This document shows positions 12,001-15,000 of a stretch of DNA of 44,448 nucleotides, in pieces (position 1 is the first letter of the stretch; every line of letters starts with the position of its first letter). Source of the DNA: a virus (taxonomy: Duplodnaviria > Heunggongvirae > Uroviricota > Caudoviricetes); IMG/VR virus record IMGVR_UViG_2851949629_000004. One strand, 5' to 3'. Position numbers: made by a program.

Positions 12001-15000
12001 TTTGAAATTGAGTTTGCCTGTCGTACAGAATGTCGCCAGCCAGTCACTCATGCTACTGAACGCAGACGTGAACAACTGTTCCACTGTCCCGGCTGTGTTA
12101 TCCGCTTTCTCAGTGACATTCTGGAGTGCACGCAGGACTCCGTTTTTCCAGTCACCCTGAGCAATTTCAAGCTGTTGCCAGTAACGGCGATTCTCATTCA
12201 GTTGTCGGTTCAGGCTCTCCGTCAGCGCCTGCTCGGCCTTTCTGTAGTCATCCGTGTTATATGTTCCTTTCTGCTCACTATCCCGCCTCAACTGCTCCAG
12301 CTGTTGCTGGTATTTCTGGCGAAGACTCAGTTGTACCTGATATCGCTGCCGCTGCTGATCACCCATACCCACCGTGGCGATATCCAGGTCATGTTGCTGA
12401 CGCTGAGCGAGCTCTTCTTCAGCCAGTTGACTGGTCAGCTGAATTGTTTTTTTCTTCAGATCGTTGAGTGCCGTCTGTTTCTGAAGCTCCTGCTGTTTTA
12501 CATCCAGCAGCGTCAGTGCCTGAATCAGTTCATCTTTACGGGCCAGCACACTCTTTTCATCTGCCGTCAGTTTTTTCCCGTCCAGATCGCTGATGCGCTG
12601 CTGCAGAGCCAGAAGCTGTTTATGCGCTTCTGTCATCCTGTCAGTGGCAATGCCTGCTGACTGTCTTGCAGCAGCAATCTGTCCTTCCACCTGTGCCTGT
12701 TGCTGACTGTACTGCAGCAATAACCGGGTGGCCTCATCATTACGGGTTTCGCGTGTTTTTTTCTTACCGGATGCCAGGGCTTTCTCGTAACGTTCATTTT
12801 CACGTTGTATCGCCGCATCCCTGACAGCCTGATCGGCGTACTGCATGGCATTAATACGCGCAATTTCACGCTGATGTCGTGCTGCTTCCGTTTCATTCAT
12901 CCGGTTCAGTGCAGCATTTTCAGCATTACGGCGTTTCTGTTGCTCCTGATAATTCCGCTCTGCCTGCTCTTTTGCATCCTGCAAATCCTTCTGGCGTTTT
13001 TTCTCCTGAAGCTCGTTAAGACGCTGCTGATCGTACTCAACCTGAGAAGATGATGCCGTCCAGGGGAGTCTTTTCGCCCGCGACACTTTCTCCTGTAAAG
13101 CGGAAATCTGTTCATCCAGCGAGTCTTCACGACCAATATTCATGGCCGCATCCCAGAAACGACTCCATAAATCAGACAGATACTTCAGCGTACTGCCCAG
13201 CGCATTGAGGTTATTATCAATATCCGCAGTACGCCGACCGGTTTCCTCTGCCAGTGCAGACATGGCTATCCGTGCCGCATCACTGGACCGCCCCTGTTCC
13301 CCAAGGACGCGTATCTGCTCAAGCTGAGTGGCAGTAAGAAAATGCAGCTCATTGTCCAGAGCCTTCGCGGCATTTACAGGATCATCCTTCAGCCGCTTAA
13401 ACTGATTTATGGTATCGCTGACCGACTGGCCAACCGATCGCTCCATCTGTGCGGCAGCTCTCGCCACCATACCGATATCGTTTCCACGAAATGCACCACT
13501 CCCCACCACCTGAGCCAGCGCACCGGCTGCAGCATGTTGCGTGATACCATTCCCGGAAATAGCACGACTGAGCGTCCACAGCTGCCCGGCAGTGACTCCG
13601 GCATAATGCCCCGTCAGCGACAGCTGGCGGTTAAATTCTTCCCCCTCCTTCTGACCGTCATACCAGGCTTTACCCAGACCATAGACAGCCGCGGCAATAC
13701 CGCCAATAACCCCGCCAAGCATCATGCCTTTCGGTGACATCAATGTGTCTATCCATCCGGCACGGTTAGCCAGCGTTATTCCGGATCCCCTCAGCGCACC
13801 TAAATTGCCGCGGGCCAGTTCACCTATCAGAACGCCTATCTCCTGACGGGCCGCTGCACTTTTCAGACCCAGCGAATGCGTTGCTTTTCCTGCCTGCTCC
13901 ATTTTGCGGATATACAATTCTGCAGCACTGCTTACCCCCAGCTGGGCAGCCTTAGCACGAAGCAACTCAGAAGAAGAAAGATTCTGGCGGGTTGCCTGCT
14001 CTTTAAGCTGACGGATAAACGCCACTTTCTGTCGGGTAGCCTCTTCCTCAGCCTGTGTAAGAACACGGGTTTTCGCAGTAACCTCAGAAATCAGTGCCAG
14101 ATAATCCTGCTGACCAATCCCACCACTGTTTCTGGCCTGTCGGATCTGCTGCTGAATACGCTGTAATTCCTGCAGCCCCGCACTGGCCTGTTTCACACTG
14201 TCAATCTGACGATAAAACGCAGCAGCTGCTTTATCCTGAGCCTCCGCCAGAGCCATGGCCTGCGCCTGTTCCTCGCGCATTTTCTGGCTCAGCGCCTCCA
14301 TGCGCTGGCGGGTTTTCTCCACCTCGCGGGCCATGCGTTCATGAGCCTGTGCGTTCTTCTCCACCGTCTGCGCATGGACGGATGCGGCTGTTGCAGCCGA
14401 AGAAGCCGCCTGCGTTGTCTGCCGGGCGGCCTGAGTCTGACGCTCCATAAAACGCTGCATACGGGCAGAAGACCGTTCTGCATCGCTGGCTGCACCATTC
14501 AGAAGGTTTTTGATACGGGGGATTTCATTTTTAAACTCTGCCGCATCAATCCCCAAATCAATGACCAGGTTGGCTATCTGGTCCATAACGCACACCTCCG
14601 GAAATACCTTCCCCAAGATGCATCAGTTCTTCGTCCGTTCGCTCCGGTATCCCGTTCTCTTCCGGTAAAAGGCTGAAATCAGCCACCGCAGCATCACTAC
14701 TGCCGGACACCATTCTCACGATCAATGCCTTCAGCGAGGCAAACTGCGCATCCATCCACACATCACTGAAGCTCTGCATCCGGAAATAATCGCCCCACTC
14801 ACCAAGCTCAGTGGCCGACATTTCCGACAGCATCCGCCGCCAGTCTGCCCGCCGGAACTCCCGGGCAAGCCGCATGACAAACTGCATTTCCCGCGTCAGG
14901 ACTTTTCCGGCGTCAGCGCCTCATGCTCATCATCCCCGGCATTATCAATGGTCCCCATACCGCTCAGCGACAGAACCATCTCCGCCCCCGCACCCAGGGC

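What the first reader, a model, noticed from the sequence alone, without database searches (positions are those of the whole stretch)
14887..14916. Candidate G-T programmed -1 frameshift at a non-canonical slippery sequence
The T-frame ORF overlaps the end of G in the -1 frame and has no SD of its own. The only slip-prone sequence before the G stop is CCG GAA AAG (GGAAAAG) rather than lambda's GGGAAAG, so the tail chaperone fusion probably uses a variant heptamer.
Basis: partly seen in the sequence, partly recalled or inferred. Interest (0 to 1): 0.35.

Follow-up and report, generated by a model that had tools for sequence, protein, structure and literature searches.

The report
Lambda-type G-T tail chaperone frameshift site
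This is the usual programmed -1 ribosomal frameshift that makes the G-T tail-assembly chaperone of a lambda-like E. coli prophage; its GGAAAAG slip site differs by one base from lambda's, but it is the common form in related phages and is already annotated in phage N15.

Summary
On the minus strand, gene G (15285..14896, Pfam Phage_TAC_2) is followed by a -1 frame segment (open 14920..14558, Pfam Phage_tail_T). They sit between the major tail gene V and the tape-measure gene H. Both frames are open together for only 25 nt. The only shift-prone sequence there is G_GAA_AAG (14908..14902).

It lies exactly where lambda has G_GGA_AAG. In 64 distinct G/T junctions from Enterobacterales prophages and named phages, 47 carry GGAAAAG and only 6 carry lambda's heptamer. 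Stop codons in some family members confine the shift to the heptamer. AAG, GAA and the preceding third-base G are kept while neighbouring codons change amino acid. ATG 14887 exists only in this clade and has no usable Shine-Dalgarno sequence.

So a -1 frameshift that yields a 242-aa G-T fusion is well supported, though inferred and not shown.

It is not new as a kind. The GenBank records of phage N15 and phage LLS already mark GGAAAAG as the G-T slippery sequence. Most records, including NCBI's automated (PGAP) annotation of about a third of complete E. coli genomes, still call T a separate gene. No downstream stimulatory RNA structure was found. An SD-like GAGG 10 nt upstream is a possible but unproven stimulator.

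The parts
15343..16086 (-). Major tail tube gene V. It marks the upstream boundary of the G-T-H module.
   Evidence: Pfam Phage_TTP_12 (E 1.9e-66) plus Big_2. The 744-nt CDS is annotated as the major tail protein in mEp460, Ayreon and Tritos. U and Z lie upstream.
15299..15322 (-). Terminator-like hairpin plus T-run (GCCCCGATTATCCGGGGC TTTTTT) between V and G.
   Evidence: Terminator scan. The equivalent site is annotated as a rho-independent terminator in mEp460, Ayreon and N15.
14896..15285 (-). Gene G, the tail assembly chaperone (129 aa, zero-frame product). Stop TGA at 14898..14896.
   Evidence: Pfam Phage_TAC_2 (lambda gpG), E 6e-40, full length. Translation. GGAG lies 3 nt before the first ATG and 6 nt before the second.
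14919..14922 (-). SD-like GAGG, 10 nt upstream of the heptamer. It overlaps the TGA (14923..14921) that closes the T frame. A possible upstream stimulator, unproven.
   Evidence: Read. Invariant in 91 near-identical loci although sites further upstream are polymorphic. An SD core 6-14 nt upstream occurs in 24 of 64 junctions against about 9% of G-ORF positions, but the acid-rich tail confounds this.
14902..14908 (-). Shift heptamer G_GAA_AAG. Zero frame: GAA = Glu127, AAG = Lys128. -1 frame: GGA AAA.
   Evidence: Homologous to lambda G_GGA_AAG. Conserved in Gifsy-1, Gifsy-2, Fels-1, N15, phi80, HK225, mEp213, LLS and many prophages. Annotated as the slippery site in N15 and LLS.
14558..14902 (-). 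T segment, read in the -1 frame after the slip. The first codon is GTC at 14902..14900, so base 14902 is read twice. 114 codons plus the stop at 14560..14558. Predicted G-T fusion = join(15285..14902, 14902..14558), 242 aa.
   Evidence: Pfam Phage_tail_T, E 5e-15. Frame arithmetic. Alignment with the lambda, Gifsy and Fels T segments.
14885..14887 (-). ATG used by PGAP and most GenBank records as an independent T start. Probably not a real start.
   Evidence: Present at this position only in the window's clade: 5 of 64 junctions. Leu (CTG) in Gifsy-1, Gifsy-2 and Fels-1. No SD core 4-10 nt upstream. PGAP annotation.
11530..14586 (-). Tape measure gene H. ATG at 14586, preceded by GGAGG. Overlaps the end of T by 29 nt.
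   Evidence: Pfam TMP_2, Tape_meas_lam_C and TMP_4. Start placed as in mEp460 and PGAP. Sequence.

Best explanation
The site is the programmed -1 ribosomal frameshift of a lambda-type tail assembly chaperone gene pair.

Most ribosomes translate G to its stop and make the 129-aa chaperone. A small fraction, with tRNA-Glu on GAA in the P site and tRNA-Lys on AAG in the A site, slip back one base on G_GAA_AAG. tRNA-Lys re-pairs perfectly on AAA, and E. coli's single tRNA-Lys prefers AAA to AAG. tRNA-Glu re-pairs on GGA with its first and third positions matched and a G.U apposition in the middle.

Translation then continues in the T frame from GTC (14902) to give a 242-aa G-T fusion, ...T-P-E-K-V-L-T-R-E-M-Q-F... 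By analogy with lambda, the G part binds the tape measure protein H and the T part recruits the major tail protein V. The low G-T:G ratio matters for tail assembly.

Shown here: the gene identities, the frame geometry, the single candidate slip site, its homology to lambda's site, and selection on its nucleotides. Inferred: that slippage actually occurs, how often, and whether the P-site tRNA really re-pairs (tandem slip) or only the A-site tRNA moves.
For: 1. G is Phage_TAC_2 and the -1 frame segment is Phage_tail_T. The gene order is Z-U-V-G-T-H.

2. The two frames are open together for only 25 nt, and GGAAAAG is the only in-frame shift-prone motif there.

3. The heptamer aligns exactly with lambda's experimentally established G_GGA_AAG. 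Lambda's -1 shift and its 30:1 product ratio are summarised in PMC5009743.

4. Across 64 distinct junctions the homologous site always holds a shift-prone heptamer: GGAAAAG 47, GGGAAAG 6, GGTAAAG 4, GGCAAAA 2, AGAAAAG 2, GGGAAAA 1, AAAAAAG 1, CCCAAAA 1.

5. Stop codons in different family members leave both frames open from only 3-6 nt before the heptamer to 0 nt after it. The shift must therefore occur on the heptamer.

6. Selection acts at the nucleotide level. At the GGAAAAG junctions Lys is AAG in 47 of 47, against 36% elsewhere in G/T. Glu is GAA in 47 of 47, against 56%. The preceding codon changes amino acid (GCG 17, CCG 16, CTG 10, GTG 2, TTG 1, ACG 1); of the 49 junctions with GAA_AAG it ends in G in 47 (background third-base G 28-54%), the exception being Morganella's GCA. 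In the Stx phages the T-frame codons over the site read Lys-Lys instead of Gly-Lys, so the pattern is not protein coding in the T frame.

7. There is no conserved independent start. The first T-frame ATG is at codon 7 only in this clade, and at codon 25 in 33 of 64 junctions. That is downstream of the conserved block ELxFxxxLAREFxRPDWR, which must therefore be translated by read-in from G.

8. The heptamer is invariant in 91 near-identical loci that carry polymorphisms just upstream.

9. Curators of N15 and LLS annotated the same heptamer as the -1 site. Gifsy-1 and Gifsy-2 T genes are annotated as the frameshift part of the chaperone.

10. A_AAG is the most shift-prone tetramer in E. coli (PMC4066793). 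Heptamers whose first triplet is not XXX are known: G_GU in T7 gene 10, G_GA in several RNA viruses, C_CA(A) in IS3 (PMC5009743).
Against: - No protein, ribosome-profiling or reporter data exist for this phage. I found none for any GGAAAAG G-T site.

- In a reconstituted E. coli system, AUG GAA AAG was chosen as the 'unfavourable' control. It gave mainly zero-frame product with wild-type EF-G, because tRNA-Glu has a second-position mismatch on GGA (PMC6924986).

- A_AAG without a stimulator was barely above background in vivo: 0.147% against 0.112% (PMC4066793).

- I found no convincing stimulator. The 102 nt downstream fold no better than shuffles (z = -0.77). The upstream GAGG is only 4 nt long and sits in an acid-rich, GA-rich coding stretch.

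- The efficiency may therefore be well below lambda's few per cent.

- In this clade only, an ATG lies 8 nt after the G stop, so some termination-reinitiation cannot be excluded.
Confidence: 0.85

Rival explanations
1. T is made on its own, by initiation or termination-reinitiation at ATG 14887, 8 nt after the G stop. This is how PGAP and most GenBank records annotate it. No frameshift would be needed.
For: The ATG exists in this clade and lies close to the G stop. PGAP and the cdtI, mEp460 and Tritos records annotate a 109-aa T from it. The Pfam T domain match starts after that Met.
Against: - There is no SD at a workable distance.
- The ATG is absent at that position in Gifsy-1, Gifsy-2 and Fels-1 (all CTG) and in 59 of 64 junctions. 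In 33 of 64 the first ATG lies inside the conserved T block.
- It does not explain the invariant AAG, GAA and third-base G choice, nor the tight two-frame window across the family.
- In lambda the T part works as a fusion whose G part binds the tape measure (PMC5009743).
Confidence: 0.07
2. The -1 shift occurs by slippage of tRNA-Lys alone on the A_AAG tetramer, without re-pairing of the P-site tRNA-Glu, as at CGA_AAG in IS1222 and B. subtilis cdd. The protein product is the same as in the tandem-slip model, so this is a sub-variant of the main explanation.
For: A_AAG alone supports -1 shifting and is used productively at G_CGA_AAG by IS1222 (PMC5009743). tRNA-Glu has a second-position mismatch on GGA (PMC6924986). 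Morganella prophages have A_GAA_AAG, where P-site re-pairing would be even poorer.
Against: Heptamer position 1 is G in 47 of 49 distinct GAA_AAG junctions although the codon it ends varies among Ala, Pro, Leu, Val and Thr. Heptamer position 2 is G in the five commonest of the eight heptamer forms (GGN AAA R). That pattern is what first-position re-pairing of the P-site tRNA predicts. A pure tetramer mechanism does not predict it.
Confidence: 0.2
3. The frame change is made at the RNA level, by transcriptional slippage on the A run, or the T segment is a decaying remnant that is not expressed.
For: There is a run of four A's in the heptamer. No expression data exist for this prophage.
Against: - To my knowledge, four A's are far shorter than the runs at which bacterial RNA polymerase is known to slip productively.
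- T is under clear protein-level conservation from 39% to 100% identity, with 31 invariant columns across five phages.
- T is intact in 1845 of 5426 complete E. coli genomes.
- The same module is present in plaque-forming phages such as mEp460, Ayreon and Tritos.
Confidence: 0.02

Closest known systems
Phage lambda G / G-T -1 programmed frameshift (G_GGA_AAG)
   Same: - The same Pfam families for G and T, and the same position between V and H.
- T lies in the -1 frame overlapping the 3' end of G.
- The slip site is at the exactly homologous codons.
- As I recall from Levin et al. 1993 (not re-read here), lambda does not need a strong downstream structure either.

   Different: - Heptamer position 3 is A, not G. 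The P-site codon is GAA (Glu) instead of GGA (Gly), and its -1 re-pairing has a central G.U instead of a perfect match.
- The G stop follows after 1 codon rather than 5.
- The two-frame window is 25 nt rather than 64 nt.
- T is shorter (114 against about 140 T-frame codons) and lacks lambda's C-terminal repeat of the GGVRYG motif.
Phage N15 genes 14/15 (also LLS, phi80, HK225, mEp213): G-T with GGAAAAG
   Same: An identical heptamer at the homologous site. The N15 record marks 10027..10033 (GGAAAAG) as 'slippery sequence for -1 translational frameshift'. LLS marks it as 'minus-one programmed translational frameshift site GGAAAAG' with a joined CDS.
   Different: - T is only about 43-46% identical to the window's.
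- The codon before the heptamer is GCG or GTG rather than CCG.
- The G stop is 5 codons after AAG.
- These phages have a possible 6-bp hairpin (CGCCAG...CUGGCG) 4 nt downstream, which the window lacks.
- I found no experimental test for these phages either.
Salmonella prophages Gifsy-1, Gifsy-2 and Fels-1 G/T
   Same: The closest diverged relatives, at 68-70% nucleotide identity. All have CCG GAA AAG (T/C)CC TGA, a 31-nt overlap and the same G stop position. The Gifsy records describe T as the frameshift part of the chaperone.
   Different: They lack the ATG at the position of 14887 (CTG instead). The SD-like core upstream is AGGA or GAGGA, 9-12 nt away, rather than GAGG at 10 nt.
Non-canonical bacterial -1 sites built on A_AAG: IS3 C_CAA_AAG, IS1222 G_CGA_AAG, B. 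subtilis cdd A_CGA_AAG
   Same: The A-site AAG slips to AAA. The P-site codon cannot re-pair perfectly. IS3's X_XAA_AAG pattern is formally the same as G_GAA_AAG (PMC5009743).
   Different: These are different genes (transposases, cytidine deaminase). The review notes a stimulatory downstream structure for the related IS3411 and at least 27 other IS elements, and the IS3 pseudoknot is the strong stimulator used in PMC4066793. As I recall, cdd has an upstream SD. No stimulator is established here.
E. coli dnaX A_AAA_AAG with an upstream SD-like stimulator
   Same: The same A-site codon and tRNA-Lys. An SD-like element about 10 nt upstream of the heptamer: GAGG here, AGGGAG in dnaX by my own knowledge. 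The dnaX mRNA sequence is given in PMC6924986.
   Different: dnaX has a fully cognate heptamer, a strong downstream stem-loop and a high shift efficiency (14% for the 10-mer alone in the cell-free assay). Here the SD-like core is only 4 nt, it is not conserved family-wide, and there is no stem-loop.

Membership tests
Lambda-type G / G-T tail assembly chaperone with -1 programmed frameshift | The upstream ORF is a gpG-type tail assembly chaperone. | tested here: met
   Pfam PF06894 Phage_TAC_2, E 6e-40, residues 2-122 of 129, 136 bits against a cut-off of 27.
Lambda-type G / G-T tail assembly chaperone with -1 programmed frameshift | The downstream segment is a gpT-type domain. | tested here: met
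   Pfam PF06223 Phage_tail_T, E 5e-15, full profile 1-73, 56 bits against a cut-off of 25.9. It aligns with lambda T with 31 invariant columns.
Lambda-type G / G-T tail assembly chaperone with -1 programmed frameshift | The pair lies between the major tail tube gene and the tape measure gene. | tested here: met
   The order Z, U, V, G, T, H on the minus strand is confirmed by Pfam.
Lambda-type G / G-T tail assembly chaperone with -1 programmed frameshift | T is in the -1 frame, overlaps the 3' end of G, and has no conserved start of its own. | tested here: met
   A 25-nt two-frame window. Every one of about 80 homologous loci has a -1 partner G ORF of 130-185 codons. The first T-frame ATG is not conserved and lacks an SD.
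Lambda-type G / G-T tail assembly chaperone with -1 programmed frameshift | A shift-prone heptamer at the site homologous to lambda's. | tested here: met
   G_GAA_AAG aligns base for base with G_GGA_AAG. The same site is shift-prone in all 64 junctions.
Lambda-type G / G-T tail assembly chaperone with -1 programmed frameshift | The heptamer has the canonical X_XXY_YYZ form. | tested here: not met
   Position 3 is A, so X_XX = G_GA. This is a property of lambda's site, not of the family: 47 of 64 junctions share the deviation, and N15 and LLS are annotated with it.
Lambda-type G / G-T tail assembly chaperone with -1 programmed frameshift | A G-T fusion protein is made at a low percentage of G and is needed for tail assembly. 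| not testable with these tools
   This needs a western blot, mass spectrometry or a reporter assay, plus genetics. No such data were found in the library for this phage or for any GGAAAAG site.
Intermediate (near-cognate) -1 heptamers built on A_AAG (IS3 C_CAA_AAG type) | An A-site AAG preceded by A, allowing cognate re-pairing of tRNA-Lys on AAA. | tested here: met
   GAA AAG in the G frame. AAG is used in 47 of 47 GGAAAAG junctions against 36% elsewhere in G/T.
Intermediate (near-cognate) -1 heptamers built on A_AAG (IS3 C_CAA_AAG type) | Partial re-pairing of the P-site tRNA: heptamer position 1 equals position 2. | tested here: met
   G_G at positions 1 and 2. Position 1 is G in 47 of 49 distinct GAA_AAG junctions despite amino-acid changes in that codon. 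Actual re-pairing on the ribosome cannot be tested here.
Intermediate (near-cognate) -1 heptamers built on A_AAG (IS3 C_CAA_AAG type) | A downstream stimulatory structure (pseudoknot or hairpin) 5-9 nt from the site. | tested here: not met
   The 102 nt downstream have an MFE of -40.8 against a shuffle mean of -38.4, z = -0.77. The first 60 nt give z = 0.06.
dnaX-type SD-stimulated -1 frameshift | An internal Shine-Dalgarno-like sequence about 10-14 nt 5' of the heptamer. | tested here: inconclusive
   GAGG sits 10 nt upstream and is invariant in 91 loci. A similar core 6-14 nt upstream occurs in 24 of 64 junctions against about 9% background, but it is not universal and the acidic tail codons (GAG, GAA, GAC) create such cores.

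The most novel reading that the evidence does not exclude
G_GAA_AAG was used as a deliberately 'unfavourable' control in ribosome kinetics. Yet it, not lambda's canonical G_GGA_AAG, is the standard G-T shift site of lambdoid phages of Enterobacterales.

On this reading it is held in place by selection on heptamer position 1, because first-position re-pairing of the P-site tRNA-Glu (with a central G.U) is enough. In this clade it would be boosted by a dnaX-like internal SD (GAGG, 10 nt upstream). That would make it a natural, very widespread test case for near-cognate P-site slippage and for how the G:G-T ratio is tuned.
Probability: 0.25. Interest if true: 0.4.

Novelty: already known. Interest (0 to 1): 0.22.

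Why it matters
Biologically this is the textbook G-T frameshift, and nothing new is needed to explain it.

Two practical points follow.

1. Annotation. This tail module is present at 95% identity or more in 1845 of 5426 complete E. coli genomes. NCBI's automated annotation (PGAP) and most phage records annotate T as a free-standing 109-aa protein starting at a clade-specific ATG, instead of a 242-aa G-T fusion. Tools that look only for X_XXY_YYZ will miss the site.

2. Mechanism. The commonest natural G-T heptamer in enteric lambdoid phages has a second-position mismatch for the P-site tRNA, and kinetic work has treated it as poorly slippery. Measuring its efficiency in vivo would show how low a G-T:G ratio tail assembly tolerates, and whether first-position P-site re-pairing or an upstream SD contributes.

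Tried and rejected
- **Other slip sites in the 25-nt window.** An in-frame scan for Z_ZZN found only GGAAAAG. GGGAAAT, just after the G stop, is outside the zero-frame ORF and cannot serve.

- **Downstream stimulatory structure.** The fold of 14901..14800 gave z = -0.77. Folds of the first 60 nt downstream in 18 diverse homologues gave z between -1.4 and +1.0. Rejected for the window.

- **Conserved hairpin in N15/phi80-type junctions.** The stem is CGCCAG...CUGGCG, 4 nt 3' of the heptamer. RNAalifold on 14 sequences found the stem but no compensatory pairs, with a covariation term of -0.05. It is absent from the window, lambda and the Stx phages. Left as an aside.

- **Upstream SD-like element.** It is enriched (24 of 64 against 9%), but it is not universal and is confounded by acidic codons. 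Kept only as a possibility.

- **Viral-contig scan for diversity.** All 80 loci returned were 98-100% identical to the window's T. They were useful only as a population sample.

- **Literature for GGAAAAG or 'G GAA AAG' as a phage site.** There were no phage G-T hits. The key paper, Xu, Hendrix and Duda 2004 (Mol Cell), and the 2013/14 JMB paper tried by PMC id are not held. I could not check whether they list this heptamer.

- **Transcriptional slippage and pseudogene readings.** Rejected on the length of the A run and on conservation.

- **Structure prediction and large protein-database searches.** Not run. Pfam and the DNA comparisons already settled the gene identities.
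Full report
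**1. What is at the coordinates**

The tail genes of this window run on the minus strand. Reading the reverse complement gives the G frame ...GAT GAT GAG CAT GAG GCG CTG ACG CCG GAA AAG TCC TGA, with the stop at 14898..14896.

The -1 frame carries a TGA at 14923..14921. It is then open as GGC GCT GAC GCC GGA AAA GTC CTG ACG CGG GAA ATG CAG..., down to a stop at 14560..14558.

The upstream ORF runs from ATG 15285 (preceded by GGAG) to 14896 and encodes 129 aa. It is a full-length match to Pfam Phage_TAC_2, the lambda gpG family (E 6e-40). The -1 frame segment matches Phage_tail_T over the whole profile (E 5e-15). The flanking genes are a lambda-type tail tube protein V and a lambda-type tape measure protein H, with U and Z further upstream. 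The module is therefore Z-U-V-G-T-H, as in lambda.

**2.

Both frames are open together for only 25 nt. A scan of that stretch for in-frame sites where the A-site tRNA could re-pair one base back finds only GGAAAAG, at 14908..14902.

ATG 14887 has no usable Shine-Dalgarno sequence. The nearest purine run (GGGA) ends one base before it, and no SD core lies 4-10 nt upstream.

The heptamer is not rare in itself: 12 copies in the window against 6.4 expected. Its presence alone proves little. What counts is its frame, its position and its conservation.

**3. Where the window comes from**

The region is 99.7-99.9% identical to phage cdtI and vB_EcoS-813R6, and 98-99% identical to mEp460, Tritos, Ayreon and others. 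The G-T stretch occurs at 95% identity or more in 1845 of 5426 complete E. coli genomes.

None of the cdtI, mEp460, Ayreon or Tritos records, nor PGAP, annotates a joined CDS. T is called as a separate gene, from ATG 14887 in most records and from a later start in Ayreon.

**4. Comparative evidence**

*Salmonella prophages.* Gifsy-1, Gifsy-2 and Fels-1 are 68-70% identical in DNA. All keep CCG GAA AAG (T/C)CC TGA. All have CTG where the window has ATG 14887.

*Lambda.* Its established shift site GCG GGA AAG aligns base for base with the window's CCG GAA AAG. The T-frame residues after it align as well (lambda ...GKVFDGELSFALKLAREM..., window ...GKVLTREMQFVMRLAREF...).

*Wider survey.* I scanned one genome per bacterial species with an alignment of T segments and added named phages. 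Every locus has a G-type ORF of about 130-185 codons for which T is the -1 frame. Among 64 distinct junctions, the heptamer at the homologous site is:

| Heptamer | Junctions | Where seen |
|---|---|---|
| GGAAAAG | 47 | window clade, Gifsy-1, Gifsy-2, Fels-1, N15, phi80, HK225, mEp213, LLS, many prophages |
| GGGAAAG | 6 | lambda; lambda-like Escherichia prophages (including E. albertii); an Edwardsiella prophage; a Stx2a phage |
| GGTAAAG | 4 | Pantoea |
| GGCAAAA | 2 | Kluyvera, Ewingella |
| AGAAAAG | 2 | Morganella |
| GGGAAAA | 1 | Providencia |
| AAAAAAG | 1 | Stx-converting phages |
| CCCAAAA | 1 | a Vibrio phage |

Clustering the genome-survey T proteins (plus lambda, Gifsy-1, Gifsy-2 and Fels-1) at 70% identity gives 21 clusters, and 15 of them carry GGAAAAG. 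The sample is biased towards relatives of the query.

**5. The shift is pinned to the heptamer**

Stop codons fall at different places in different family members. The T frame opens as little as 3-6 nt before the heptamer (an Edwardsiella prophage, Pantoea, Providencia heimbachae). In 11 junctions the G stop follows the heptamer immediately. The only stretch open in both frames in all members is therefore the heptamer itself.

**6. Selection acts on nucleotides, not on amino acids**

- At the 47 GGAAAAG junctions, Lys is always AAG, against 36% AAG elsewhere in the same G/T genes.
- Glu is always GAA, against 56% elsewhere.
- The codon before it is GCG (17), CCG (16), CTG (10), GTG (2), TTG (1) or ACG (1). 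That is five amino acids, always with third-base G, where the background is 28-54%. Only the Morganella junctions have GCA.
- The T-frame codons over the site (GGN AAA) cannot be what is conserved. They are not translated if the slip occurs here, and in the Stx phages they read Lys-Lys.
- Within the window's own clade, 91 loci show 14 haplotypes over 86 nt. Several sites upstream are polymorphic and one locus has a substitution in the codon after the heptamer, but the heptamer itself never changes.

**7. No independent T**

The first ATG in the T frame is at codon 7 (counted from the heptamer) only in the window's clade, which accounts for 5 junctions. It is at codon 11 in 19 junctions, at codon 17 in 6, and at codon 25 in 33. 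Only one of these ATGs has an SD core at a workable distance.

Codon 25 lies inside the most conserved block of T (ELxFxxxLAREFxRPDWRxML). In most family members that block can therefore only be translated by ribosomes arriving from G.

**8. Mechanism**

- *Established knowledge.* In E. coli, A_AAG is the most shift-prone tetramer, because the single tRNA-Lys pairs better with AAA than with AAG. G_GGA_AAG and C_CCA_AAG are highly shift-prone heptamers (PMC4066793; PMC5009743).
- *Known precedents for imperfect heptamers.* G_GU in T7 gene 10, G_GA in several RNA viruses, and C_CA(A) in IS3. IS3 has the same X_XAA_AAG pattern as here (PMC5009743).
- *Inference for this site.* Tandem slippage: tRNA-Lys moves from AAG to AAA, and tRNA-Glu moves from GAA to GGA with a central G.U. 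The conserved G at heptamer position 1 argues for P-site re-pairing rather than a pure A-site slip.
- *Product.* join(15285..14902, 14902..14558), 242 aa, with the junction ...TPEK-VLTRE...
- *Function.* By analogy with lambda, G binds the tape measure and T recruits the tail tube protein. Neither is in the virion, and the ratio is about 30:1 (PMC5009743).

**9. Caveats on efficiency**

- Peng et al. used AUG GAA AAG as their poorly slippery control and saw mainly zero-frame product with wild-type EF-G (PMC6924986).
- A_AAG without a stimulator is barely above background in vivo (PMC4066793).
- I found no downstream structure: z = -0.77 over 102 nt.
- An SD-like GAGG lies 10 nt upstream, which is the dnaX spacing. 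It overlaps the TGA that closes the T frame and is invariant in the clade.
- Similar cores occur 6-14 nt upstream in 24 of 64 junctions against about 9% background. They are not universal, and the acidic tail of G is rich in GAG and GAA codons.
- The stimulator question is therefore open, and the shift may be less efficient than lambda's.

**10. Novelty**

The GenBank record of phage N15 marks 10027..10033 as 'slippery sequence for -1 translational frameshift', and that sequence is GGAAAAG. Phage LLS has a joined CDS and a feature labelled 'minus-one programmed translational frameshift site GGAAAAG'. The Gifsy-1 and Gifsy-2 records describe T as the frameshift part of the chaperone. The PRFect paper lists a 'twofour' motif class among backward slip sites (the name suggests XXYYYY; not checked against its Fig. 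S1) and discusses tRNA-Glu re-pairing on GGA through G.U (PMC10885494).

The heptamer is thus already known as a G-T site. What is missing is annotation in this clade, and, as far as I could find, any experimental measurement. I could not read Xu, Hendrix and Duda 2004.

**11. Verdict**

The feature is an ordinary member of a well-known system, with a heptamer that is the common form in its family. Interest is low. The value is mainly in correcting annotation and in offering a natural test case for near-cognate P-site slippage.

Noticed in passing
window 15299..15322 (-): A terminator-like hairpin, GCCCCGATTATCCGGGGC followed by T6, lies between the major tail gene V and G. The equivalent site is annotated as a rho-independent terminator in mEp460, Ayreon and N15. 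It could lower G/T/H expression relative to V.
   Followed up: partly
window 14919..14923 (-): The TGA that closes the T frame upstream of the heptamer overlaps an SD-like GAGG placed 10 nt before the heptamer (CA TGA GG). This 'CATGAGG' is invariant in 91 near-identical loci that are polymorphic just upstream.
   Followed up: partly
L056-L083 (genome-contig loci): Lambda's own G/T junction, identical or nearly identical, turns up on short, low-coverage contigs of unrelated assemblies, including Kitasatospora, Neobacillus, Oceanobacillus, Shewanella, Leeuwenhoekiella, Enterococcus and Pseudoxanthomonas. This looks like lambda control-DNA contamination of public genomes.
   Followed up: no
64 junctions: The G stop codon falls in only three places relative to the heptamer: immediately after it (11 junctions), 1 codon later (19) or 5 codons later (34). 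In the first class the zero-frame stop directly follows AAG (GAA AAG TAG/TAA, GCA AAA TAG, GGA AAA TAG), which might itself slow the ribosome.
   Followed up: no
L170, L171 (Stx phages); L173 (Vibrio phage K243); L055, L066, L071, L073 (Pantoea); L016, L018: The same homologous site carries quite different heptamers in other lineages: A_AAA_AAG (dnaX-like) in Stx1/Stx2-converting phages, C_CCA_AAA in a Vibrio phage, G_GTA_AAG in Pantoea prophages, and G_GCA_AAA followed by a stop in Kluyvera and Ewingella. The five commonest forms fit G_GNA_AAR.
   Followed up: partly
L167 (N15) 611..650, and the equivalent in L017, L022, L025, L036, L038, L166, L168, L169, L174: N15/phi80-type junctions have a possible 6-bp hairpin (CGCCAG...CUGGCG, with a loop of about 22 nt) starting 4 nt after the heptamer. 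It is absent in the canonical-heptamer members (lambda, Stx phages) and in the window. No compensatory changes were seen (0 of 10 pairs).
   Followed up: partly
L175 (NZ_CP023346): PGAP annotates T as a separate 109-aa 'phage tail assembly protein T' starting at the clade-specific ATG. This module is present in 1845 of 5426 complete E. coli genomes, so the missing G-T join is a systematic annotation gap.
   Followed up: yes
window 17763..19982 (-): A single 739-codon ORF combines a ClpP-type protease domain (Pfam CLP_protease, residues 95-255) with a capsid domain (Phage_capsid_4, residues 441-736). It looks like a prohead protease-major capsid fusion gene, although the ORF list's start codon may be too far upstream.
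   Followed up: no
window 14558..14586 (-): The tape measure gene H (ATG 14586, preceded by GGAGG) overlaps the last 29 nt of the T frame. G-T, G and H are therefore tightly packed, and all may depend on the same transcript.
   Followed up: no
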